From a phage, in the sequence record PZ445524.1: a stretch of DNA of 64,000 nt; one strand, 5' to 3'. Shown here piece by piece: positions 28,005 to 39,887 of the stretch (position 1 is its first letter; the number at the start of each line of letters is the position of its first letter). The notes beneath the pieces are model-generated. The model was not told the origin of the DNA. It searched no databases and saw only the letters and a program-made list of their open reading frames with translations. The translations under genes were made by a program, and so were the position numbers.

Positions 28005-29015
28005 TCATTTATAATAACTTCGGTGGTTTTCAAGATAGACCTTCTCAAGGAAGTCATCCCAGAAACCCATGTCTACTTTTTGCTGCATACCGTTCTTAGA
28101 AGCTTCAGTAGATGCTGCTTCTACTTGATCGACCACATCTTCCAAAAACTCTTGAACCGTTTTAAATGGATGTTTACCCAACTTCACGTCGAGAATAAAT
28201 GGAGCGTCTTTGAGTGGATAGACTAAGTCGCCAGTTTTGTAAATTTCCAATAGTTGAAGTCCACCACGACAAGCATGGCTCAGAGCTTTCCAGTCAATGC
28301 CTTCGTTGGCTTCGGCCTTACGAGCGCGTTCACCATATTCAGCATCTAATTTGTTCAGTGACTGCTTAAGCTCAATAAGAGAAAGAGTTGTCTGATATTT
28401 ACGACCCAACACAGTGTAGAACGTTTGTGGGCCTGTTTTCTCATGATTATGAAATACCCATTCACAGAACTCGTTCTCTGGAAGACGATGCTTAATATCT
28501 TCAACTTTAGTGCGACGCTGCTTAATAGAACCATCTTCTTGGTAATCAACCCATTGCTCAGGGATTTGATTAACTACTTTCAATACATCGCGTAATGCAG
28601 CCAAACGAGAACCCTTGACACCGTATTTAGAAGCTTGCTTGCGAACATATCCTAAATATGATTTCATGTTAGTCGTATAAAAACGAGAACGGTTGTCTTG
28701 AATAAACTTCCACACATCAGGCAAATCAGATTTAACCACTAGCTCAGGTGGAGTGTGAAGCATATCTAATGCTACAGTTTCACCATCTGCTGCTAATTTA
28801 AAGAAATACTTAAGACTGTATAGTTCATGGTCAATATCATCTTTAGTGTTTTTAGATGATGTGTTGTTAGTGTTTTTACTCATATGCTCTTTGACGTTTC
28901 CGATAAGAATATCGCGAGCAGGAGGAACAAAAATTTCTTTAAAATCTACATCAGATTCTGGGGTAGAAGTTCCATAAAGATGACTACCAAAATAAGACTT
29001 AACTACAGTTTTCAT
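28005..29015 (-). CDS. Polymerase-beta-superfamily nucleotidyltransferase-like protein
   Basis: N-terminal motif GSHLYGTSTPESDVDF (GS-x10-DxD) plus a later acidic residue (VALDMLH). Start ambiguous: track 29051 is TTG, ATGs at 29039, 29030, 29015; the start region overlaps the 3' end of the HNH gene. Confidence 0.55.
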   Translation of the reverse strand: MKTVVKSYFGSHLYGTSTPESDVDFKEIFVPPARDILIGNVKEHMSKNTNNTSSKNTKDDIDHELYSLKYFFKLAADGETVALDMLHTPPELVVKSDLPDVWKFIQDNRSRFYTTNMKSYLGYVRKQASKYGVKGSRLAALRDVLKVVNQIPEQWVDYQEDGSIKQRRTKVEDIKHRLPENEFCEWVFHNHEKTGPQTFYTVLGRKYQTTLSLIELKQSLNKLDAEYGERARKAEANEGIDWKALSHACRGGLQLLEIYKTGDLVYPLKDAPFILDVKLGKHPFKTVQEFLEDVVDQVEAASTEASKNGMQQKVDMGFWDDFLEKVYLENHRSYYK

Positions 29016-29778
29016 TATTAGACCTTTCATAATCTTCATTAAATTGTACAATCAATCGATGATAATTAGATTTTGGATATCCTAATTTACTTATATAAGT
29101 TCCGAATGACCCACGTTTAGGTCTATTTAATTTAATCCATAACTTATAAAGTAAGTCATAGTCTTGCCAATGTTTACCAGTTCTTTGTCTAATTTTAGAT
29201 GAATTTGATTGTTTCTTTTTAGTTTCAAAATTATTCAAAGATTTTTTGACTGCAGCAGAGTGTTTTTCTTTAACTCCCGGTCGTTTAAAAGCAGCTTTCA
29301 CCCCTTTAGATATTTTTTCTTTAACTTCCGGTTTGTTTTGTGCTTCTAACTGGGATTCTGAAATTTTAGCCCTTATTTCAGGAAGACTTAATGTTATCGA
29401 ACGTTTTTCTCTGTATTCATTAGACTTCCACATTTCTTTCATTGTATTAGAATGTATTTTTGAAAATTTTTCTCTAACTAACTGATATCCTCTTGAAGTT
29501 AATTTGAGATTTCTTCCTAAAGAATCTTCTCCAAAATTATAAAATGACCACCATGCATAAATTAATCCAGGCGAATTATAATGAATTTTAGCTAAAAGCC
29601 AATGGGCTATAAAATGCTCTCTAGCTGTTAATAAAACTAGATTATCAGAATCATCATTACCACCAATACAAGATGGAATAATATGATGCTTTTCCGTATA
29701 AAAATTTAATTTAGATTTATCTAATTTTCTGAGTTTTCCTTTCTTAATTAAATTATTATATACTTTAGTATAATTCAT
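28999..29778 (-). CDS. mobD: HNH homing endonuclease (MobD-like)
   Basis: 259 aa; HNH core EKHHIIPSCIGGNDDSDNLVLLTAREHFIAHW; repeated basic C-terminal modules (PEVKEKISKGVKAAFKRPGVKEKHSAAVKKS). Confidence 0.75.
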   Translation of the reverse strand: MNYTKVYNNLIKKGKLRKLDKSKLNFYTEKHHIIPSCIGGNDDSDNLVLLTAREHFIAHWLLAKIHYNSPGLIYAWWSFYNFGEDSLGRNLKLTSRGYQLVREKFSKIHSNTMKEMWKSNEYREKRSITLSLPEIRAKISESQLEAQNKPEVKEKISKGVKAAFKRPGVKEKHSAAVKKSLNNFETKKKQSNSSKIRQRTGKHWQDYDLLYKLWIKLNRPKRGSFGTYISKLGYPKSNYHRLIVQFNEDYERSNNENCS

Positions 29779-29852
29779 TGGTTCTTCGTCTCATTTAATT
29801 TTGCTTTGCATTTATAACACATGTCTGTTCCACTTGAAATAAACATATTTCC

Positions 29853-30410
29853 TCACTTTGAAATCATAGTTGGAATAACAGAATCAAGATAAGTCTTTAG
29901 TGCAATAGCTTCGTCTTTGTTTAATGTAATGATATGTGATCGAAAATCGTCAATTTGACGAATAGATACTATATCTCCCTCTTCATAGCATTTTGACACA
30001 TTTAAAATAGTTTCATCATTATGATTACAGGAGTTAGTAATAATAGCATTACATTTTTTAAACCATTTTAAATTATGTTTTCTTTTAGTAGAATCATAAA
30101 AATATTTAATGTTAGTTATAAAATTATCCCAATTATTAATTGATAAGCACATTGACTCGCTTTTAATATTAAATCCTGGGCATGAAGAATAAAAATGAAT
30201 TTTATGCTCATCATTAATGCTTACAATTTTATCAGTGTAAGCATATTCAATTTGGGTTAAACGAACAATTTCGCTAGGCGTAAAATATAACATGTCATCT
30301 TCTTGCGTCAAACGATACATGTTATTTACTTTTTCTATAGCCAATTCACCAAAAAGCGGACTAACTTCTAATACTAATCGTTTCATATTGATTCTCTTCG
30401 ACTCACTCAC
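29853..30410 (-). CDS. Hypothetical Cys-rich protein
   Basis: 185 aa with scattered cysteines; start may be GTG at 30410 or ATG at 30386. Confidence 0.45.
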   Translation of the reverse strand: MSESKRINMKRLVLEVSPLFGELAIEKVNNMYRLTQEDDMLYFTPSEIVRLTQIEYAYTDKIVSINDEHKIHFYSSCPGFNIKSESMCLSINNWDNFITNIKYFYDSTKRKHNLKWFKKCNAIITNSCNHNDETILNVSKCYEEGDIVSIRQIDDFRSHIITLNKDEAIALKTYLDSVIPTMISK

Positions 30411-30543
30411 AATTACATACTCCTTTGAATAATATCAATAATGTTGTTCACCAGATTATAAGTAAACATTGGGTAATTATATTGAATCATCACATACACA
30501 ACAAACAAAATTTTCATTCTCTTCTCCTTGACAGTTGACAAGA

Positions 30544-30577
30544 TTACTATACCATAACCTTGCCAACTTGTAAACCA
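30544..30577 (-). promoter_or_regulatory. T4-type early promoter (GTTTAC ... TGGTATAGT)
   Basis: Minus strand GTTTAC, 18 nt, TGGTATAGT. Confidence 0.45.
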
Positions 30578-30751
30578 TTAAATGACGTTTTCAATAAAAT
30601 TCTGAAGCTTTGTGTGAGCATCAACCATGATTTTCATTTCTTCCTTTGCGAAAGCTGTACCTCTTTCCCGAGAAGAACATTCATAGTCAGAAACTGCATT
30701 AGCATATTCTTCAATTAGCTTCATTAAAAACATCTGCTTTTCAGTTTTCAT
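30578..30751 (-). CDS. Hypothetical small protein (57 aa)
   Basis: Found by hand: ATG 30749-30751 with GGTGGAAT SD gives MKTEKQMFLMKLIEEYANAV... Confidence 0.3.
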   Translation of the reverse strand: MKTEKQMFLMKLIEEYANAVSDYECSSRERGTAFAKEEMKIMVDAHTKLQNFIENVI

Positions 30752-30935
30752 TATTCCACCTAATCATTTCAAGATATTGAACTAACTTAGCTTTAGATTT
30801 ATCCAAATCCTTTTTAGCTGCTTCTATACCGTCGTATGAATATCCTTCACAATGCTCAACTGCTAATTGGTATGAATCTATTTCAATATCACGTGCTAAT
30901 TTAATGATTTTTTCAAACTGTTCACGTGTTAGCAT
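30741..30935 (-). CDS. Hypothetical small protein
   Basis: 64-aa ORF. Confidence 0.4.
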   Translation of the reverse strand: MLTREQFEKIIKLARDIEIDSYQLAVEHCEGYSYDGIEAAKKDLDKSKAKLVQYLEMIRWNNEN

Positions 30936-30937
30936 AA

Positions 30938-31120
30938 TTAAACTCTCGTATTATGATCGATAATTTCATCAAGAAACATATCTAACGCTTCTAAAGCATT
31001 ATCAACTTTAGCTTCAAGTTCTTCAATACCTGATAAGGCAAAGTTAATGCGTTCCTCATCTGCTTTACGAATTAAAGCTACCAATTCCTTAATTTTATCA
31101 GCTTGTTCGATACTAATCAT
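30938..31120 (-). CDS. Hypothetical small acidic protein
   Basis: ATG at 31118-31120 (MISIEQADK...) overlaps the upstream stop by 1 nt. Confidence 0.4.
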   Translation of the reverse strand: MISIEQADKIKELVALIRKADEERINFALSGIEELEAKVDNALEALDMFLDEIIDHNTRV

Positions 31121-31308
31121 TATTCCACCACATATGAAAGAGAGAATATTGCACACGCCATGTGAGTTGCAACTTCATCACACATATTATAACGTTTCTT
31201 AAGAAGTTCTACAAGTTCTTCACTAGTAACTTCATCCATGTCGACGAAAAAATCACCATTAATGATGACGTAGATATTTCCTTCTTGATTGAGTGCTTCA
31301 ATTTTCAT
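31120..31308 (-). CDS. Hypothetical small protein
   Basis: ATG at 31306-31308 with AGAGGAGAA SD ([10 protein letters not shown]...). Confidence 0.4.
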
Positions 31309-31332
31309 GATGTTCTCCTCTTTATCCGATGG

Positions 31333-31368
31333 TTGTATAGTACCACAGCTCAAACGGAAAGTAAACCG
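31333..31368 (-). promoter_or_regulatory. T4-type early promoter
   Basis: Minus strand GTTTAC and TGGTACTAT, upstream of the 31120-31308 gene. Confidence 0.45.
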
Positions 31369-31382
31369 GTAAAATGAAAAAA

Positions 31383-31398
31383 GTCTCCCGAAGGAGAC
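31383..31398 (-). terminator. Hairpin gtctcc-cgaa-ggagac
   Basis: mRNA GUCUCCUUCGGGAGAC, 5 nt after the stop of the 128-aa ORF. Confidence 0.45.
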
Positions 31399-31403
31399 TA
31401 ATG

Positions 31404-31790
31404 TTATTCGAGGGAAAGAAGATACTTACTCTGGTAAAACATTCCAGTAATATCATCTATCGTGCTTTGGATGGCTGGAGGCATTTCTTTATAAATGCTG
31501 TTAGATTGGTCTAGTATGCGATCAATCATTTTAATTGTGTCGGTAGGAAGTTTACTAGCATCTGGAATTGAAGGTGTGTATTTTCTACCAGAATACCCCA
31601 AATATTGCTCACCAAATTTATCAATCAAATCTGGCAACTCGGAGAAAATAAAATCGTATGCTTTGTGTCTAGCATAACTTTTAGTTTCAAAATGTGCAGA
31701 ATGAAAATAAGCTTGTGCAGCCATTAATAAACCTAAGTATTCATCTGCCTTTGAAGGTTTTCCACTTTGTGAAAAGTCGCTGAATTTCAT
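31404..31790 (-). CDS. Hypothetical protein (immediately downstream of rI)
   Basis: 128-aa ORF; start overlaps rI stop. Confidence 0.5.
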
Positions 31791-32080
31791 TCAGTCTCCA
31801 ATTTAATGTTCATAATTCTAGCGTATGATTGTGCCATCTCCGCGCCTCGTTCTATACATTCAAAATCAGAAGAGCACGGGTCATTTTTATAGGTCGTTCT
31901 CATAAAACTATAGAATTGTTCAGACGATTCTACGCTTTTATTTTCAAAAAGCATATAAACGTGCCTAATACCAGATTCCATAAATTTATCAAAATGAGGA
32001 TCGACATTCGCTTCAATCGATGGAGATAAAACAAATGACAATCCTAGCATGGCAAATAGTGCCGTTGCTTTTAAGGCCAT
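31787..32080 (-). CDS. rI: Lysis-inhibition regulator RI (antiholin)
   Basis: 97 aa with signal-anchor MALKATALFAMLGLSFVLSPSIEA; matches T4 RI as recalled. Confidence 0.8.
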   Translation of the reverse strand: MALKATALFAMLGLSFVLSPSIEANVDPHFDKFMESGIRHVYMLFENKSVESSEQFYSFMRTTYKNDPCSSDFECIERGAEMAQSYARIMNIKLETE

Positions 32081-32092
32081 AAAGGCCTCCTA

Positions 32093-32305
32093 TCATTTTT
32101 GCCCTGTATTTACTTTATGCCGATGCACGGCCTTAACTTTATCAAGGTATTTTTCAAAATTTCGCAATCTAGTATAGTCTGCCGGAGATTGGTTGAGTGA
32201 TACTTCTCGACGCAAAGCTGAAATGATATTTCCAACTTCCCTACGAATTTCATCTAATTGAAGCACAGTAAGATTGCGAAGTTGCTTTTCAGTTAATTGT
32301 AGCAT
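32093..32305 (-). CDS. Hypothetical basic small protein
   Basis: 70-aa ORF between tk and rI. Confidence 0.45.
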
Positions 32306-32347
32306 ATATACCCCTTTAGTTAGATAAACCTATTTATAACTTTTGCA

Positions 32348-32929
32348 CTAACCGAGCTTTTTAGTTAATTCATTCCAATGTTTTCTACACAAAGAAACAT
32401 AAATTTCATCACCAATACAGATTTGATTACCTTCTTTAACGGGTGTTCCATCTTCCATTAATCGAGCTGTCATAATAGCTTTTTTACCACAATGACAAAC
32501 TGCCTTTAGTTCAATAAGTTTATCTGCAATCGCCAAAAGTTCTTTAGAACCTTCAAACAATTTTCCAGCGAAATCAGTCCTTAATCCATAAGCCATAACA
32601 GGAACATTATATGTATCAACAATTCGACTCAATTGATGCACCTGTTCAGTTTTTAAAAACTGGGCTTCATCTACAAATACGCAATGAATATCTTTTTGTG
32701 CTTCAGCCCATTTATAGAACTCGAAAATATCCATATCATCTGTAATAATATTTGCTTCCTGCCTAATTCCAATGCGAGAAACGACTTCACAGACAGAATC
32801 GCGAGTATCAATAGCAGGCTTAAGAACTAATACACTCATTCCACGTTCTTTATAATTATGTGCAGCAGTCAAAAGAGAAGCAGATTTTCCAGCATTCATT
32901 GCTGCATAAGTAAAAATTAAACTCGCCAT
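32348..32929 (-). CDS. tk: Thymidine kinase
   Basis: 193 aa; P-loop AAMNAGKS and C-terminal zinc-ribbon cysteines; same length as T4 Tk. Confidence 0.95.
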   Translation of the reverse strand: MASLIFTYAAMNAGKSASLLTAAHNYKERGMSVLVLKPAIDTRDSVCEVVSRIGIRQEANIITDDMDIFEFYKWAEAQKDIHCVFVDEAQFLKTEQVHQLSRIVDTYNVPVMAYGLRTDFAGKLFEGSKELLAIADKLIELKAVCHCGKKAIMTARLMEDGTPVKEGNQICIGDEIYVSLCRKHWNELTKKLG

Positions 32930-32930
32930 T

Positions 32931-33119
32931 TTAATCCTTAGTTAAATTTTCTAAATATGTTTTTAAATCATTTTCAGCTTTATCGATAGATTTTACTAAT
33001 TCGTAATATGTTTCGGCATCTCCATATTCAGAAGATATTTCAAAAGACAAATCCTTTTCTAAACTAATAATTTCACCAACTAAAAATAATATTTCGTTCT
33101 TTTGTTCGCGAGTAATCAT
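32931..33119 (-). CDS. Hypothetical small acidic protein
   Basis: 62-aa ORF (tk.1 position). Confidence 0.4.
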   Translation of the reverse strand: MITREQKNEILFLVGEIISLEKDLSFEISSEYGDAETYYELVKSIDKAENDLKTYLENLTKD

Positions 33120-33307
33120 AAGGAATTTATATAATCAATGAGTTCTTGTTCTTTATTATCGAATTCTTTAGAAAGTTCTTCGTACTCGTTTGCACTAAAA
33201 GGACCGCATTCATTACAAACTTTTTCCAATTCACTATTTTTATCCATAACTTCGTGGATAAGAGAAAAGAGTTTGTCTTTTTGTTCTTTACTTAAACTCA
33301 TAACCAT
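33116..33307 (-). CDS. Hypothetical small acidic protein
   Basis: 63-aa ORF. Confidence 0.4.
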   Translation of the reverse strand: MVMSLSKEQKDKLFSLIHEVMDKNSELEKVCNECGPFSANEYEELSKEFDNKEQELIDYINSL

Positions 33308-33525
33308 GTCACCTTTAAGCAGTATTCTTCTACATGCTGTTTACGACCTTTCTTATCAATAAAGGTATATTCAACGAATGTTCCAATGTAGTCTTTATCT
33401 ACATCATGTGGACTATTAATTGGACATTTAGTACGGCAAATGCGTTCCCATTGACGAATAATTACTGCCTTATTCTTTGGGTCATATGGATGTGGATAAT
33501 GTATATTCATAATAATGGTTCCCAA
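33298..33525 (-). CDS. Hypothetical small protein
   Basis: 75-aa ORF. Confidence 0.4.
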   Translation of the reverse strand: MGTIIMNIHYPHPYDPKNKAVIIRQWERICRTKCPINSPHDVDKDYIGTFVEYTFIDKKGRKQHVEEYCLKVTWL

Positions 33526-33974
33526 TCAACAATCACAATTTCTAATTTAGAGGAATATGTATCTAAAATCCCCTCAATAATATCCCAGTTCCCTTTACCT
33601 ATGCCTGCACCAATCCTAGGCATATAGATTGTAGGTTTAATCAGTTTATTTTCACCAAACTCATTTAATTCTAACATACAATTCATTAAAGCGGAATATT
33701 CAAAATTTGGCCCTGGTTGAAATTGAGTATAAAGATTAAAGCAGTAAGCTTTATGAGTCCTAAAGTATTTTTCATAGACTGAATAAGAACCAAGTTTAGT
33801 TACATCACCCCATTCAGTCTGTAATTTATCAGCTTCCAAAATTTTAGGGAAAGCTTTGGTTAATTGACCTGCGACTCCAGCTTTCATCGTATGAAAACAA
33901 TTGCATCCATGCGCAATATTTTTACCTTCAGTGAAAAGGGCGACAATATCGCCCTTGATATATTTTACAATCAT
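33507..33974 (-). CDS. Macro-domain-like protein (putative ADP-ribose binding or processing)
   Basis: 155 aa; N-terminal GDIVALFTEGKNIAHGCNCFHTMKAGVAGQL and later IGAGIGKG resemble the two Gly-rich macro-domain loops. Confidence 0.6.
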   Translation of the reverse strand: MIVKYIKGDIVALFTEGKNIAHGCNCFHTMKAGVAGQLTKAFPKILEADKLQTEWGDVTKLGSYSVYEKYFRTHKAYCFNLYTQFQPGPNFEYSALMNCMLELNEFGENKLIKPTIYMPRIGAGIGKGNWDIIEGILDTYSSKLEIVIVDWEPLL

Positions 33975-34318
33975 TTAGTACTCAATCCTCGATTATAAGA
34001 ATCTACCAAACGGTCAACCATTGAATGACAAGCGGCTTTATCTTTCTCCTCCGCAACTGAACATTCTAAGGTATTCCACTTTTTAGCATATCGTTTTAAT
34101 AATGTATCGTTTTTGTATCTGCTTGATTTATCTCTTTCTCCGTCTTTATATGCATATATTAATTTCTGTGCAAATTCAGCTTGGCATGCTTTATTTTTCC
34201 CACAATAATCTGCCGCAGTGCGGTTTACATATTCTCTAATTTCAGTATATGATGTATCTGCTGACGCAGAAGCAGAAAATGAAATTAATCCTATACATAA
34301 AACCAAAATTTTAGTCAT
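33971..34318 (-). CDS. Secreted small protein (vs position)
   Basis: 115 aa with signal peptide MTKILVLCIGLISFSASASA; lies immediately downstream of the SLT-like gene. Confidence 0.45.
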   Translation of the reverse strand: MTKILVLCIGLISFSASASADTSYTEIREYVNRTAADYCGKNKACQAEFAQKLIYAYKDGERDKSSRYKNDTLLKRYAKKWNTLECSVAEEKDKAACHSMVDRLVDSYNRGLSTK

Positions 34319-34856
34319 TTACTATTTCCAAAAGTTTATTATTTTTAAGGTAATTAGCCTTTTCTAGGACTTCAGAAGCATATTTAGAACCAGCTTTAAC
34401 ATTCCATCCCGAATTATAAGAGGATATTGCTTTTCTTATATCGCCCTTATGTATATTTAACCAATAAGAAAGTTCAATGTACGCCCAGGAAGCTGAATTG
34501 GATCGTTTATTCAACATTCTTTTTATTTCAGCATCGGTCATATTATAACCAAGTTCCTTAACTCTTGCTCGCATAGTAGGCAAATAATTTTGGAACATTC
34601 CGTAGGCGTGATGCTTTGGTTTAGATTTTAAATTAACTCCGCCAGAGCTTTCTTGCCATAAAATAGCAGCCATTATATGACCTAATCCGCTCTTGTGGAT
34701 ATTTTTGTGTGTTTTATATTTTCCATCCTTAGAAAATTGTTCCCCGAATTGATACGCGTAACGCATGTTATCGAGTTGGACATTACTGAAAGTATGCTCG
34801 GAGCTATGTGCCATCATTGAAATGGCCAATAGACCAGCGAGTAGTGCTTTTCTCAT
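34311..34856 (-). CDS. Secreted protein with lytic-transglycosylase-like motif
   Basis: 181 aa with signal peptide; ILWQESSGG resembles the SLT-domain E-S catalytic motif. Confidence 0.4.
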   Translation of the reverse strand: MRKALLAGLLAISMMAHSSEHTFSNVQLDNMRYAYQFGEQFSKDGKYKTHKNIHKSGLGHIMAAILWQESSGGVNLKSKPKHHAYGMFQNYLPTMRARVKELGYNMTDAEIKRMLNKRSNSASWAYIELSYWLNIHKGDIRKAISSYNSGWNVKAGSKYASEVLEKANYLKNNKLLEIVND

Positions 34857-34863
34857 GCTTACC

Positions 34864-35325
34864 TCATTGAGTTTTAATTACTGCTTTAGAAGCCTTTCCT
34901 GGTAAACGACGACTGTTGATAATTGCCATCCTACATTGAAGTGACGGGTCTTTGAACTTCGCGTTAGGTTTACAAACTGTAAATCCAAGCCAAAGATTTC
35001 CATCTGTGATTTCTAAACGTCCAGGACGATATTCAACCCCATCAATAAAATCCTCGTCAATGTCAGGACGCGGAGGCATACTCAGGAATTCATTAACTTC
35101 TAAAACATGGTCTTTTATTTTATGGAATAATTCAAAAACGTATGTCTCATCAATCTCCCGTTGAATTGCGCGATCAAGAAGATGCTGAGAATATTTTAGA
35201 TGAAACGATGAGACTCCTGCTGCTTTTGATGCCTCACGAATCTCATTGTTAATTTGACGAAACTCCGACTCAAAGTGACGACGAAGCTTATTTCGACGGA
35301 TAAAAACTTCTGTATTGATAGTCAT
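34864..35325 (-). CDS. regB: Endoribonuclease RegB
   Basis: 153 aa; matches T4 RegB as recalled (MTINTEVFIRRNKLRRHFE...). Confidence 0.9.
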   Translation of the reverse strand: MTINTEVFIRRNKLRRHFESEFRQINNEIREASKAAGVSSFHLKYSQHLLDRAIQREIDETYVFELFHKIKDHVLEVNEFLSMPPRPDIDEDFIDGVEYRPGRLEITDGNLWLGFTVCKPNAKFKDPSLQCRMAIINSRRLPGKASKAVIKTQ

Positions 35326-35384
35326 GTTATTCTCCTCTTAACTGATAGAAAAATTATACCACAGTCAAGAGGAAAAGTAAACAG

Positions 35385-35663
35385 TTATTCTTTAAATCTA
35401 ATCAATTTATTCATAGACTTTGAAACTTCTGCACGAACCTCATGTAGATTTTTGAGCTGTTCAAGACGCTGCGTATAGTAAGCAATTTCATCTTCTTCGA
35501 GACAGTCCTGTGAATCTTCTTTAAGATAACGTGCATAGTCCTGGAAAGCGTTACGAACTACTTCCTGGAAATCATCAAGACTTTGAATTTTCTTAGGAGC
35601 AGCAGATACACGACGAGGGGCAGTATAATACTCATAACCAAACCCTGCGCTTAATTGAGCCAT
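35385..35663 (-). CDS. Hypothetical protein
   Basis: Start moved to ATG 35661-35663 ([10 protein letters not shown]...), overlapping the upstream stop. Confidence 0.4.
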
Positions 35664-35959
35664 TAGTATTTTTCCTCTGGTTGGAACACTGCACGACAAG
35701 CCCACATACTGGCTTCTTTGAGTTTCGTTTTAGCAATAGTTAACTGATCGAGGCTTTCGGCGTAATTCTTCGCGAGTTCATCATCTTCACAGCTATCAAA
35801 TGCTTCCCAAAATTCATCGTATAAAGCATCAAAGATAAGTCCTAAACGAACTTCAGCGTCTTTAATAGCATTTACTTTACCGATTTTTTCGTCGGTGTGT
35901 GGCTTATAACCTTTAATATCTTCAATCATATTTGACTTCCTCACCAGTGCATAAATCAT
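35663..35959 (-). CDS. Hypothetical protein in the T4 vs.4 (Acb2) position
   Basis: Position-based only (vs.4 slot after regB). Track start is TTG; ATG at 35957-35959, or ATG at 35927-35929 which has a GAGGA SD. Confidence 0.4.
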
Positions 35960-36143
35960 ATTCAACTAAACGAATAGGTTCATGAATGCCATATCCCTGA
36001 ACAGAAATTTCTGTCGTAGGATAAATTCCATCAATATCGCCCATATTCCACGCTTCATTAAATTGCTGTTCGCCTGAATTACTAAACCACTCGGCGAAAG
36101 CATTTAGAACATCTTTAGAACCTTCAATAATTATCTTTGCCAT
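35922..36143 (-). CDS. Hypothetical acidic small protein
   Basis: 73-aa ORF; start overlaps the grcA-like stop. Confidence 0.4.
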   Translation of the reverse strand: MAKIIIEGSKDVLNAFAEWFSNSGEQQFNEAWNMGDIDGIYPTTEISVQGYGIHEPIRLVEYDLCTGEEVKYD

Positions 36144-36505
36144 TACAAACTCTCGGTGAAGGTACGAGCGATAACGTCGCGCTGCTGTTCCGGAGTCAGA
36201 GAGTTAAAGCGAACTGCATAACCGGATACACGGATGGTCAGCTGCGGATATTTTTCCGGATGCTTAACTGCATCTTCCAGAGTTTCACGACGCAGAACGT
36301 TAACGTTCAGGTGCTGACCACCTTCAATTTTAACTGTAGGCTGTGACTCAATTTCAATTTCACGGGCATGCAAACCATAGAAAATTTCTGGGTCTACAAA
36401 AGAGTCCTCTTTAAAGGTTTTAGAGACAATAATTCGTGCTTGAATACCATCTTCAAAATAAATAGTACCTTTATGTGTGCCTTCAAGAATTTGATATGCT
36501 TTCAT
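36143..36505 (-). CDS. grcA: Autonomous glycyl-radical cofactor (GrcA/YfiD-like; T4 Y06I homolog)
   Basis: 120 aa; the C-terminal ~59 residues ([60 protein letters not shown]) match E. coli GrcA as I remember it; the 3' half is visibly more GC-rich than its surroundings. Confidence 0.88.
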
Positions 36506-36512
36506 ATAAACC

Positions 36513-36839
36513 TCAATTAGAAAATAAATTTATCCAAGATTGTTCTTTAATTAAAAATGGCTCAGAATCATATGCCATTAAACTTTGCGTAATTAGTCCT
36601 TTAAAAGGCCCATCAATAAATTCCATGGTAAAATATGGAATTTTATTCATTAGCCGTGCATTAGGAGCAGTACACAAAACTCTGCATCCTTTGAATACGC
36701 CTTTTTGCAATTTGTATTGCTTAGGATAAAATTCGCTTAAAATGTTATTTTTTGCCAAAATTTCAAAATGATTCACCAATTTATTTTTAATAGTTTTTGG
36801 CGAAAAATAAAGATATTCGAAAAGCTGAGTGTCTGTCAT
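36513..36839 (-). CDS. Hypothetical protein
   Basis: Start moved to ATG 36837-36839 (MTDTQLFEY...), overlapping the upstream stop. Confidence 0.4.
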
Positions 36840-37378
36840 CATTGCATTCCGATTACGAAAAACTGTGGACGAGTAATACCACCAATACAACATTTAATAT
36901 TACAGCAGCAGTGTACAGTGTCAATATGGACACTATAAATTTTATCCATATCAGGAGATTTAACAGGCTCATCAATTATATACAAAATTCGCGAAAGCTT
37001 TAAACCTCTGAACTTGCTTCCTTTATTACCGATAAAACTGCGCACAGAATCAGTAAATAAACGAAAACGTATATCATCATTAGAATAACGCGAAAATTCC
37101 TTTTTGATGCTATTTGCAGAAATTTTAGCGTAAGCTGAAGTATTAGAAAGAACAATAACTGTTCCGCCATCATACAACCAATTAGCGGCAAAATTAGTTA
37201 CTGCAGTTGATTTACCGGATTGACGTCCACCATCTAGTCGAAGTGTGCAATACTGCTTAAGTAAGTCTTCAAATGGTGGGATATAATCGTTTTTACAAAT
37301 TTCTTCTACTCTAGCATCAGAATGGTGTGTAAAAGCATTCATCAGGGATAGATAAGGACCAGTTAAAAATGTTCTCAT
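36839..37378 (-). CDS. P-loop NTPase-like protein
   Basis: Walker A GGRQSGKST and Walker B ILYIIDE; start ambiguous (ATGs at 37426, 37408, 37378; only the last has a weak SD). Confidence 0.45.
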   Translation of the reverse strand: MRTFLTGPYLSLMNAFTHHSDARVEEICKNDYIPPFEDLLKQYCTLRLDGGRQSGKSTAVTNFAANWLYDGGTVIVLSNTSAYAKISANSIKKEFSRYSNDDIRFRLFTDSVRSFIGNKGSKFRGLKLSRILYIIDEPVKSPDMDKIYSVHIDTVHCCCNIKCCIGGITRPQFFVIGMQ

Positions 37379-37555
37379 TTTATTCTCTCTAAATTTGGGC
37401 CATTCCATGGCGCATGAATTGTCCATTTCTGTATTTACCCATTACCGCACTTGGGCTTGACCTTATTACAGGTTGGCGGGAATCCCTCACAAAATCATGA
37501 GGTCCAGGTTGTTCCCATGTTATTTAAATGTAAATAGGTCTGAGTATTCGCTTTA

Positions 37556-38134
37556 TTAGGAATTACGGGCTGCATTAGCAACGGCATACGCGTACTGAAT
37601 ATTAGCGTCTTTAAACTTACCTTTAGAGGTATCTATTTCTGCCTTAAAGCCGCCTTTAGTCATAACATCGGCAAATTCTTTACGGAAAGCCATTGCATCA
37701 AGACCTTTCCATGATGATTTATGCTTAGCAAATTCAAGACCTGCGAAGTTAACAGCCTTAGCTAATTTATTATCAATAACCCATTTACCGGCTTTAGGCA
37801 CAAACTTCGGGCCTTTCTGTTTAGAGAACAGTTTTAAATTCCAGCGGCGAAGGTCTGCATCAGCTTTAACAAATTCTGAGTCTAAGTTACTAGCAACAAC
37901 ATCTTCAATATGAGCAAATTTAAGTCCGTCAACTTCAATATTTAAATCGGTACGCCAGCGAAGTCCTTCCCATGCGAAGGCTTTAAAGTCGGAAGCCTTT
38001 GTAGCTAAGTACCGTTCAATAGGAGCTGTTTTAGGGTCAAAGCCGTTTCCCGATCGGTAGGTCCACTCATCTTTGTTAATGCCTTTGGCCTTTACTACAG
38101 AAGCTTCGGCAATAAATTCTTGATATGTTTTCAT
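37556..38134 (-). CDS. ipIII: Internal protein III
   Basis: 192 aa beginning with the capsid-targeting leader MKTYQEFIAEA. Confidence 0.8.
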   Translation of the reverse strand: MKTYQEFIAEASVVKAKGINKDEWTYRSGNGFDPKTAPIERYLATKASDFKAFAWEGLRWRTDLNIEVDGLKFAHIEDVVASNLDSEFVKADADLRRWNLKLFSKQKGPKFVPKAGKWVIDNKLAKAVNFAGLEFAKHKSSWKGLDAMAFRKEFADVMTKGGFKAEIDTSKGKFKDANIQYAYAVANAARNS

Positions 38135-38150
38135 GCGTTTCCTTTAATTT

Positions 38151-38468
38151 TTATTCTTTAGGGAAGTTTTTAGAATATGCATCATAAAGCTTATTTCCAA
38201 TACGGCGGAAAACTCTAGCCGCAAAACGATTTTCTGGGTTTTTAATCATGATTTGCATCATATAAGTACCCGCGTCAGAAAGAGCTTCTTCATAGTACCC
38301 GTTAATTTCTTTAAGAGTCCTACGTTTACCACCAGGACCATCAACAGTGATTTTCCATTTACCTGTAGAAGTGCGACTTGGCGGCTCAACTTGTTCAATC
38401 CAAATATAACCGCCTTCTACACGTTGTCCTGCAGCAGATTCTGCAATAAATTCTTGATATGTTTTCAT
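38151..38468 (-). CDS. ipII: Internal protein II
   Basis: 105 aa beginning MKTYQEFIAES. Confidence 0.75.
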   Translation of the reverse strand: MKTYQEFIAESAAGQRVEGGYIWIEQVEPPSRTSTGKWKITVDGPGGKRRTLKEINGYYEEALSDAGTYMMQIMIKNPENRFAARVFRRIGNKLYDAYSKNFPKE

Positions 38469-38556
38469 GTGTTTCCTTTAAATATTTTAATTAGTAATTT
38501 GTCTCTTCAAGCAACTGTGAATATACTATCACAATTCTAGGAGAAAGTAAACAACT

Positions 38557-39087
<531 letters not shown>

Positions 39088-39528
39088 TTAAAAGAGGTTG
39101 TTCATTATTCGGTAAAGTGAAGGACCCATCACATATTGCCACTGAGTACGAGGAATAAGAGCAAAAGCGTCCATCTCTGGAATCATAACGCCATCTTTAT
39201 TTTCAAAATAAGACTCGCAACGGCAATTTCTAAACATCTCATGCTCTACTGGAATCGTATAATAAAATAACTGTAGGTCTTTATTACTAGAATATTTAAA
39301 TACACCTAGGTCTTCTAGAAGGTCTGGATTATAATTGCTAAAACCAGTCTCTTCTAAGCATTCTCTTCGTGCTGCATCTAATGCGCTTAAATCAGAACAT
39401 TCTACACGACCTTTTGGAATATCCCAACGATGTGCCATCATTCCAGGCTTACGAGAACCAGTAACCCGACCCATAAATAAATCTTTATCTTCTGTCATAA
39501 AGATAATACCAGCTGATAATGTTTTCAT
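39088..39528 (-). CDS. nudE: Nudix hydrolase NudE
   Basis: Nudix box (RECLEETGF); ATG at 39526-39528 with AGGAA SD; track extends to a TTG at 39543. Confidence 0.85.
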   Translation of the reverse strand: MKTLSAGIIFMTEDKDLFMGRVTGSRKPGMMAHRWDIPKGRVECSDLSALDAARRECLEETGFSNYNPDLLEDLGVFKYSSNKDLQLFYYTIPVEHEMFRNCRCESYFENKDGVMIPEMDAFALIPRTQWQYVMGPSLYRIMNNLF

Positions 39529-39887
39529 TTTAATTTCCTGCAATCACTCACAAACTCTTTCATTGATTCATTTTCAATATAAGACATGTAGCTATTATAT
39601 TCCTTTAATTGTATTTTGTAATCCTTTTTTCTTTGCCAATTTATTTTAAAATTATCATAATGAAAATATAGCATGATACCAAAGAATGAAAATAATGAAA
39701 TCGCTATAGTAAAACGAAGTTCACTCCAAACCTCTGTTATAATTACTGTGCCGTCGATGTTTAAAATAAGACAGTCAATTAACAATCCAAAAAGACTACC
39801 TGCAAGAGCTGCAGCCAACGCCACAGCAAAAATTAAAAATGACTCAGGAAACGAATATTTGACTTTATTTAATTTTGGCTTTTGCAT
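39525..39887 (-). CDS. Small membrane protein
   Basis: 120 aa with two predicted transmembrane helices. Confidence 0.5.
   Translation of the reverse strand: MQKPKLNKVKYSFPESFLIFAVALAAALAGSLFGLLIDCLILNIDGTVIITEVWSELRFTIAISLFSFFGIMLYFHYDNFKINWQRKKDYKIQLKEYNSYMSYIENESMKEFVSDCRKLK

What the first reader, a model, noticed from the sequence alone, without database searches (positions are those of the whole stretch)
33507..33974. Macro-domain-like protein in the tk-regB accessory block, with a Nudix hydrolase nearby
The 155-aa protein carries two Gly-rich segments that resemble the ADP-ribose-binding loops of macro domains, and NudE (39088-39528) is a Nudix hydrolase (T4 NudE is reported to act on ADP-ribose). 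A phage macro domain could remove ADP-ribose marks laid down by host defence toxins, degrade ADP-ribose-derived immune signals, or tune the phage's own ADP-ribosyltransferases. This is inference from motifs only.
Basis: inference. Interest (0 to 1): 0.7.

Follow-up and report, generated by a model that had tools for sequence, protein, structure and literature searches.

The report
T4 tk.4/adfM anti-DarTG2 macrodomain gene

Summary
The 155-aa ORF at 33507-33974 (minus strand) is real. It is the orthologue of phage T4 gene tk.4, with 152/155 identical residues and conserved gene order tk–tk.1-4–vs–vs.1–regB. The macrodomain call holds: Pfam Macro scores above its cut-off, an AlphaFold model built with a 100-sequence alignment has pLDDT 96, and the best structural matches are BT1257, Poa1p, DarG and TARG1 (ALC1-like class). 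The two Gly-rich segments align with the two ADP-ribose-binding loops.

The function is already published. The A1pp/macro motif has been noted since at least 2006. A 2025 preprint (HIDEN-SEQ) found tk.4 to be the only T4 gene needed to resist DarTG2, confirmed this with a clean knockout, and renamed it adfM.

This analysis adds three points. The protein has an invariant Gln where DarG and TARG1 have their catalytic Lys, as in the Lys-less thymidine-ADP-ribose hydrolase SCO6735. It is only about 18% identical to the DarG-like "AdfM" of PhiKZ. This phage carries a common loop-1 allele (MKAG instead of T4's MGSG).

NudE is a genuine Nudix protein, but it lies 5 kb and about 14 genes away, and nothing links it to tk.4. 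Verdict: confirmed, already known, low interest.

The parts
33507..33974 (-). tk.4 / adfM coding sequence (155 aa), a stand-alone macrodomain protein
   Evidence: ORF listing. 152/155 identical to T4 Tk.4. Pfam Macro. AF2 pLDDT 96.4. Fold matches.
33867..33911 (-). Residues 22-36, H-G-C-N-C-F-H-T-M-K-A-G-V-A-G: macrodomain loop 1 with conserved H22 and N25. This phage has K31-A32 where T4 has G31-S32.
   Evidence: Alignment to TARG1, DarG, PhiKZ AdfM and BT1257. Column conservation. Nucleotide differences from T4 cluster in codons 29-35. The allele is found in 47 phage records.
33723..33731 (-). Codons Y82-T83-Q84. Q84 occupies the position of the catalytic Lys of TARG1 (K84) and DarG (K80).
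   Evidence: Profile alignments. Q84 is invariant in 100/100, 71/71 and 140/140 homologues. The SCO6735 Gln85 precedent is in PMC9411070.
33585..33620 (-). Residues 119-130, P-R-I-G-A-G-I-G-K-G-N-W: macrodomain loop 2 (phosphate-binding loop). G126 sits at the position of TARG1 D125.
33971..33974 (-). ATGA overlap: the tk.4 start codon overlaps the vs stop codon, which suggests translational coupling within one transcript
   Evidence: Sequence read directly.
33507..33510 (-). ATGA overlap: the tk.4 stop codon overlaps the tk.3 ATG as annotated in T4
35353..35381 (-). Best sigma-70-like promoter match upstream of regB (TTTACT-17-TATAAT with an extended TG). It is a candidate early promoter for the co-directional regB-vs.1-vs-tk.4-tk.3-tk.2-tk.1-tk run.
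   Evidence: Consensus scan only; this is not evidence of function. No MotA-box middle-promoter match lies on the minus strand between 31 kb and 44.6 kb.
39088..39543 (-). nudE (Nudix hydrolase). This is context only and is not shown to act with tk.4.
   Evidence: Pfam NUDIX E=1.7e-13. 149/151 identical to T4 NudE. The T4 record lists ADP-ribose among its substrates.

Best explanation
The gene is the orthologue of T4 tk.4/adfM, an orphan, antitoxin-like counter-defence enzyme. It is probably expressed early, from the polycistronic regB-to-tk unit. The host toxin DarT2 attaches ADP-ribose to thymidine in single-stranded DNA. The 155-aa macrodomain most likely binds that ADP-ribose between its two Gly-rich loops and hydrolyses the thymine-ribose bond, releasing free ADP-ribose and restoring replicable phage DNA. 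The chemistry is probably not that of DarG or TARG1, because their nucleophilic Lys is replaced by an invariant Gln (Q84) and TARG1's Asp is replaced by Gly (G126). It more likely follows the SCO6735-type route. There the Gln, held in place by the conserved Asn (here N25), positions the distal ribose, and a backbone-held water starts bond cleavage. Shown here: identity to T4 Tk.4, the macro fold, and the active-site residue pattern. Shown in the literature, for T4 only: the gene is required against DarTG2. Inferred: the enzymatic removal of ADP-ribose from DNA, and the Gln-type mechanism.
Against: No biochemical assay of T4 Tk.4 was found; the preprint itself says enzymatic removal 'seems likely'. 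The genetic evidence comes from a preprint on T4, not from this phage. This phage's allele changes G31, which is Gly in about 86% of the family, to Lys inside loop 1. The effect of that change on activity is unknown, although the allele is common in natural phages, including RB51, wV7 and near-identical T6. Tk.4 lacks the 5-6-residue longer 'mobile loop' that the SCO6735 authors associate with DNA binding. The NCBIfam DarG model scores far below its cut-off, 24 against 250 bits.
Confidence: 0.8

Rival explanations
1. The protein neutralises DarT2 mainly without catalysis, by binding or occluding the toxin or by shielding ADP-ribosylated DNA, rather than by hydrolysing the modification.
For: Catalytically dead SCO6735 Q85A still inhibited DarT in vitro more strongly than DarG K80A or TARG1 K84A. 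The phage factors AdfA and AdfB act by binding DarT directly. Tk.4 lacks the catalytic Lys of DarG.
Against: Tk.4 has no counterpart of DarG's C-terminal DarT-binding domain, since it is 155 aa and consists of the macro domain only. The isolated DarG macrodomain K80A did not inhibit DarT. The residues needed for catalysis in SCO6735 (the Asn27 and Gln85 equivalents) are invariant across hundreds of homologues, including stand-alone bacterial ones with no DarT neighbour. That pattern fits an enzyme better than a toxin binder.
Confidence: 0.07
2. Its main role is to erase ADP-ribose from proteins or RNA. Candidates are marks from other host ADP-ribosyltransferase toxins or from the phage's own Alt, ModA and ModB enzymes. 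On this view DarTG2 protection is one facet or a side activity.
For: ALC1-like macrodomains such as TARG1 and SCO6735 also remove Glu/Asp-linked ADP-ribose from proteins. T4 encodes three ADP-ribosyltransferases. RNA ADP-ribosylation defences exist, for example CmdTAC.
Against: Alt, ModA and ModB modify arginine. From general knowledge of the family, macrodomains are not known to cleave that linkage. T4 carrying tk.4 is still strongly restricted by CmdTAC. The only phenotype reported for tk.4 is DarTG2-specific.
Confidence: 0.08
3. It is a metabolic enzyme, as the legacy 'phosphatase' annotation implies: an ADP-ribose-1''-phosphate phosphatase or O-acetyl-ADP-ribose deacetylase, possibly feeding ADP-ribose to NudE for recycling.
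For: PHROG 335 and RefSeq name it 'phosphatase' / 'A1pp motif'. Yeast Poa1p is a top structural match, and it shares the H-x-C-N-C motif, with Tk.4 H22 and T29 at the positions of Poa1p H23 and S30. T4 NudE hydrolyses ADP-ribose.
Against: The name only reflects the old label for the macro domain. No source of Appr-1''-p in T4 infection was identified. tk.4 and nudE are 5 kb apart. nudE was not a hit in the DarTG2 screen, where tk.4 was the single hit. A metabolic role would not explain the DarTG2-specific phenotype.
Confidence: 0.04

Closest known systems
T4 Tk.4 = AdfM (anti-DarT factor Macrodomain), bioRxiv 10.1101/2025.11.20.689424
   Same: It is the orthologue: 152/155 identical residues, the same length, and the same position between vs and tk.3.
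   Different: There are three substitutions (A15T, G31K, S32A), two of them in ADP-ribose-binding loop 1. They sit in a patch where the nucleotide differences from T4 cluster.
SCO6735 (Streptomyces coelicolor) and BT1257 (Bacteroides thetaiotaomicron): Gln-type ALC1-like macrodomains
   Different: Identity to BT1257 is only about 26-29%. Tk.4 lacks their longer mobile loop (a 6-residue gap in the alignment). Gly replaces SCO6735 Val25, although that role is backbone-mediated. Tk.4 is phage-encoded.
DarG antitoxin macrodomain (DarTG2 toxin-antitoxin system)
   Different: There is no catalytic Lys80, which is Gln here. There is no C-terminal DarT-binding domain and no adjacent darT. The NCBIfam DarG model scores 24 bits against a cut-off of 250.
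PhiKZ gp104 'AdfM' (chimallivirus DarG2-like macrodomain, PMC13309987)
   Same: It has the same name and the same counter-defence role against DarTG2. It is a macrodomain whose conserved Asn is needed for full activity.
   Different: It belongs to a different lineage. PhiKZ AdfM is DarG-like (E=9e-25 to Mtb DarG) and keeps the 'PTK' lysine. It is about 18% identical to Tk.4, and BLASTP aligns only 23 residues at E=0.017. It is imported into the phage nucleus.
T4 AdfN (gp30.3, NADAR) against DarTG1
   Same: It follows the same strategy, an orphan antitoxin-like ADP-ribosylglycohydrolase carried by T-even phages.
   Different: It has an unrelated fold (NADAR), acts on guanosine-linked ADP-ribose, does not counter DarTG2, and is not encoded in this window.
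Human TARG1 (OARD1) and yeast Poa1p
   Same: They are the top Foldseek hits, with the same class and loop architecture. TARG1 also removes DarT-made DNA ADP-ribosylation (title and abstract listed).
   Different: The TARG1 catalytic dyad K84/D125 is Q84/G126 here. Poa1p is a phosphatase on a small-molecule substrate.

Membership tests
Macro domain (Pfam PF01661) | Profile score above the curated gathering threshold | tested here: met
   25.0 bits against a cut-off of 22, E=1.9e-5, covering profile positions 2-113 of 118. The margin is narrow, but the family profile matches solved macrodomains at E=7e-20.
Macro domain (Pfam PF01661) | Three-layer alpha/beta/alpha macro fold | tested here: met
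Macro domain (Pfam PF01661) | Two Gly-rich ADP-ribose-binding loops (loop 1 and loop 2) | tested here: met
   M30-KAG-VAG36 and P119-RIGAGIGKG-128 align with the loops of TARG1, DarG and BT1257. G33, A35, G122 and G124 are invariant.
Macro domain (Pfam PF01661) | Binds ADP-ribose | not testable with these tools
   This needs ITC, a thermal-shift assay or a co-crystal structure.
ALC1-like macrodomain class (TARG1, DarG, SCO6735, Poa1p) | Closest structural and sequence relatives fall in this class rather than in the MacroD, PARG or macroH2A classes | tested here: met
DarG antitoxin (NCBIfam NF048014) | Equivalog model score above its cut-off | tested here: not met
   24.3 bits against a cut-off of 250. 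PADLOC DarG gives E=1.7e-7 over the macro part only.
DarG antitoxin (NCBIfam NF048014) | Catalytic lysine (Taq DarG K80) | tested here: not met
   Gln84 occupies that column and is invariant in the family.
DarG antitoxin (NCBIfam NF048014) | C-terminal DarT-binding domain and an adjacent darT gene | tested here: not met
   The protein is 155 aa and consists of the macro domain only. Its neighbours are vs and tk.3.
SCO6735/BT1257-type (Gln-type) thymidine-ADP-ribose hydrolases | Gln at the TARG1-K84/DarG-K80 position, with the conserved Asn and His of loop 1 | tested here: met
   Q84, N25 and H22 are present. BT1257 shows Q at the same column. The essential role of SCO6735 Gln85 and the importance of Asn27 are described in PMC9411070.
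SCO6735/BT1257-type (Gln-type) thymidine-ADP-ribose hydrolases | Mobile loop five residues longer than in DarG and TARG1 | tested here: not met
   BT1257 has a 6-residue insertion after the Y-T-Q strand that Tk.4 lacks. The feature is described.
SCO6735/BT1257-type (Gln-type) thymidine-ADP-ribose hydrolases | Hydrolyses DarT-made dT-ADP-ribose on ssDNA | not testable with these tools
   This needs a gel-shift de-ADP-ribosylation assay.
T4 tk.4/adfM orthologue group | High identity to T4 Tk.4 and a conserved position between vs and tk.3 | tested here: met
   98% amino-acid identity. The 3.1-kb tk-regB block is 98.6% identical to T4 and collinear with it.
T4 tk.4/adfM orthologue group | Required for plating on DarTG2-expressing hosts | not testable with these tools
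   This is reported for T4 only. It has not been tested for this phage or its K31/A32 allele.
Poa1p-type ADP-ribose-1''-phosphate phosphatase | Residues mutated in the deposited Poa1p structures (H23, S30) and phosphatase activity | tested here: inconclusive
   H22 and T29 sit at the equivalent positions in the pairwise alignment. Activity cannot be tested here, and the Poa1p structure paper was not available in the library.

The most novel reading that the evidence does not exclude
T-even AdfM is not a captured DarG. It is a phage copy of a large family of stand-alone, Lys-less (Gln-type) bacterial macrodomains. That would mean phages recruited anti-DarT2 macrodomains at least twice from different lineages (T4-type and PhiKZ-type). 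The loop-1 allele in this phage (K31/A32, shared with RB51, wV7 and near-identical T6) could alter substrate range or efficiency against particular DarT2 variants or other nucleic-acid ADP-ribosylation.
Probability: 0.3. Interest if true: 0.4.

Novelty: already known. Interest (0 to 1): 0.15.

Why it matters
The gene illustrates how phages carry orphan antitoxin-like enzymes to undo DNA ADP-ribosylation by DarTG systems. That story is already told for T4 (AdfN against DarTG1, AdfM/Tk.4 against DarTG2). What remains open is biochemical. No enzymatic assay of the T4-type protein was found. It also lacks the catalytic lysine of DarG and TARG1, so it would be a second natural test case, after SCO6735, for lysine-independent cleavage of thymidine-linked ADP-ribose. 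Homologues occur in about 5% of sequenced phage genomes, so an assay would support or correct the widespread 'phosphatase' or 'hypothetical protein' annotations.

Tried and rejected
1. Single-sequence AlphaFold2 gave a useless model (pLDDT 38). It was replaced by a run using a 100-sequence alignment.

2. I looked for a DarT-like partner next to bacterial homologues. In 80 genome loci the neighbours are lineage-specific housekeeping genes (ArgC-, SecA- and IleS-like by sequence), and no neighbour family recurs in more than 9 loci. The family is therefore not a toxin-antitoxin module.

3. Two 'bacterial MAG' homologues (P0071, P0099) turned out to lie on T4-like phage contigs carrying Rnl1, a Dda-like helicase, PNK and dCMP deaminase. 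They say nothing about bacterial context.

4. A MotA-box middle-promoter pattern search found no minus-strand site between about 31 kb and 44.6 kb. The only promoter candidate for tk.4 is the sigma-70-like site upstream of regB, and that is a consensus match only.

5. I considered and rejected a functional operon with nudE. The genes are 5.1 kb apart, and the T4 DarTG2 screen recovered tk.4 alone.

6. I considered membership of the DarG family and rejected it on three defining features.

7. The SCO6735 sequence could not be retrieved for a direct alignment. The equivalence of Q84 and Gln85 rests on both aligning to TARG1 K84 and DarG K80.

8. Two literature queries failed because a term was too short.

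Full report
**What is there**

The window is a T4-like phage (Tequatrovirus). The 3.1-kb stretch from tk to regB is 98.6% identical to T4 and 98.9% identical to phages BF15, F26 and NIC06P2. Window 29001-37516 is collinear with T4 56431-64938. The ORF at 33507-33974 on the minus strand encodes 155 aa. It matches T4 Tk.4 at 152 of 155 residues and is 100% identical to the protein of Tequatrovirus NIC06P2. It sits where tk.4 sits in T4, between vs (valyl-tRNA synthetase modifier) and tk.3. ATGA start/stop overlaps join it to both neighbours, which suggests one transcript and coupled translation. The only good sigma-70-like site upstream on this strand lies in front of regB. No MotA-box pattern lies nearby on this strand. 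Both are consensus scans, not evidence of function.

**Is it a macrodomain?**

Yes.
- Pfam Macro (PF01661) scores 25 bits against a gathering score of 22.
- The single sequence already finds the solved macrodomains BT1257, Poa1p, TARG1/OARD1 and DarG.
- A profile of 100 homologues raises these matches to E=7e-20 (BT1257), 2.4e-16 (TARG1), 8.7e-16 (SCO6735), 1.5e-14 (Poa1p) and 3.7e-14 (Mtb DarG).
- Single-sequence AlphaFold2 failed (pLDDT 38). With the alignment the model has pLDDT 96.4 and pTM 0.91.
- Foldseek against the PDB puts TARG1, Poa1p, BT1257 and DarG on top.
They align with macrodomain loops 1 and 2.

The observation and the fold assignment are therefore confirmed.

**Already known**

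Nolan et al. 2006 reported the A1pp (macro) match in tk.4 orthologues (PMC1524935). Several GenBank records already call the gene 'macro domain protein'.

Johannesman et al. [quoted passage not shown] The HIDEN-SEQ preprint (bioRxiv 10.1101/2025.11.20.689424) then infected a DarTG2 host with a T4 transposon library and found tk.4 as the single significant hit. A clean knockout was sensitised to DarTG2. The authors noted the structural similarity to the Mtb DarG macrodomain and renamed the gene adfM. They state that enzymatic removal of ADP-ribose from DNA 'seems likely'; no enzymatic assay of the protein is described in the passages I read.

**What the active site says about mechanism**

An HMM-guided alignment compared the window protein with TARG1, two DarG macrodomains, PhiKZ AdfM and BT1257.
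- N25 aligns with DarG N22 and PhiKZ N23. Mutating either reduces activity.
- Q84 aligns with TARG1 K84, DarG K80 and the 'PTK' lysine of PhiKZ AdfM.
- G126 aligns with TARG1 D125.

The protein therefore lacks the nucleophilic lysine that is essential in DarG; K80A is inactive and fails to rescue DarT toxicity. The Gln is not an accident of this phage. It is invariant in 100/100 homologues from the word-indexed search, in 71/71 bacterial genome homologues (selected on other motifs), and in 140/140 further cluster representatives.

There is a direct precedent. Streptomyces SCO6735, a stand-alone ALC1-like macrodomain 54% identical to BT1257, has Gln85 at this position. It is dead as Q85A or Q85E, yet it cleaves DarT-made thymidine-ADP-ribose faster than DarG and rescues DarT toxicity. 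Its authors propose that Gln85, held by Asn27, positions the distal ribose while a backbone-held water starts the reaction (PMC9411070).

Tk.4 shares the His, Asn and Gln of that type, and BT1257 is its nearest solved relative. It lacks the longer 'mobile loop' of SCO6735 and BT1257. My best reading is a Gln-type, lysine-independent thymidine-ADP-ribose glycohydrolase. This step is inference.

**Relation to other 'AdfM' and DarG proteins**

PhiKZ gp104 is also named AdfM and has been shown biochemically to remove DarT2 marks (PMC13309987). It is a close DarG relative (E=9e-25 to Mtb DarG) and keeps the lysine. It shares only about 18% identity with Tk.4. The two AdfM proteins are therefore separate recruitments within one macrodomain class.

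Tk.4 fails DarG membership on three counts: model score (24 against 250 bits), catalytic lysine, and domain architecture.

The Tk.4-type family is large. It has 1371 50%-identity representatives at E<=1e-30 and 19,090 at E<=1e-3. Homologues occur in 2728 of 50,697 phage records across many genera. More than 500 bacterial chromosomal copies exist. The 80 inspected are stand-alone genes with housekeeping neighbours and no recurrent DarT-like partner.

**The allele in this phage**

The three differences from T4 are A15T, G31K and S32A. Many of the nucleotide differences between the two genes fall in codons 29-35, that is, in loop 1. Position 31 is Gly in about 86% of the family. The exact 42-nt allele occurs in at least 21 phage records, including wV7, RB51, RB68, HY03 and SG1. 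It occurs with one mismatch in T6, AR1 and PST. It is therefore a common natural variant and presumably functional. In DarG and SCO6735, a lysine one position further along this loop contributes to activity (DarG K29E, SCO6735 K34E). Whether K31 does something similar is speculation.

**NudE**

The ORF at 39088-39543 is a genuine Nudix protein, 99% identical to T4 NudE. The T4 record lists ADP-ribose among its substrates. It lies 5.1 kb from tk.4, beyond regB, the vs.3-vs.8 genes, the internal-protein genes and lysozyme e. The T4 DarTG2 screen recovered only tk.4. NudE could in principle break down the ADP-ribose that Tk.4 releases, but nothing here supports a functional pair.

**Verdict**

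The gene and its role are already known, so interest is low. The residual open point is biochemical: the T4-type enzyme has not been assayed, and it must work without the DarG/TARG1 lysine.

Noticed in passing
window 37427-38556 (compare T4 64939-66502): T4 denV (endonuclease V) and ipII are absent. tblastn finds neither anywhere in the 64-kb window. ipIII (37556-38134) follows vs.8 directly.
   Followed up: partly
window 38151-38468 (-): There is an extra 105-aa ORF between ipIII and lysozyme e. It begins MKTYQEFIAE, the same N-terminal leader as ipIII, and matches phrog_3966 (unknown function). It looks like an alternative internal-protein cassette in a known variable spot.
   Followed up: partly
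window 36839-37490 (-): The vs.8 homologue matches T4 Vs.8 in two reading frames (aa 1-32 at 37490-37395; aa 26-219 at 37426-36842). This suggests a frameshift or a different start relative to T4.
   Followed up: no
window 39525-39554: T4 gene e.2 (T4 67652-67960) is missing between nudE and e.3. The alignment to T4 jumps from T4 67501 to 67957.
   Followed up: no
window 33867-33890 (tk.4 codons 29-36): The nucleotide differences from T4 cluster tightly in the loop-1 codons, giving MKAG instead of MGSG, while most of the rest of the gene is identical. This looks like a small recombination patch or a selected allele. It is shared with RB51, RB68, wV7 and HY03, and nearly with T6.
   Followed up: partly
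L002 41-2397 (T4-like phage contig filed under a Bacilli MAG): In a distant T4-like phage contig the Tk.4-type macrodomain gene lies two genes downstream of a DUF4326 gene, beside an Rnl1-type RNA ligase and a Dda-like helicase. From memory, DUF4326 is NADAR-related. The two types of ADP-ribose eraser may cluster in some phages.
   Followed up: no
phage record OL964745.1 (Escherichia phage T4 subline), hit H30: In this T4 stock the tk.4 match is split into two pieces annotated as two macro-domain proteins, which suggests a disrupted gene in a laboratory subline. A separate paper reports a Ser36Gly difference in tk.4 between T4 sublines.
   Followed up: no
window 34311-34856 (-), vs.1: Vs.1 matches the SLT lytic transglycosylase domain just above the Pfam cut-off (25.1 against 21.3 bits) and begins with a hydrophobic, signal-like N-terminus (MRKALLAGLLAISMMAHS).
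   Followed up: no
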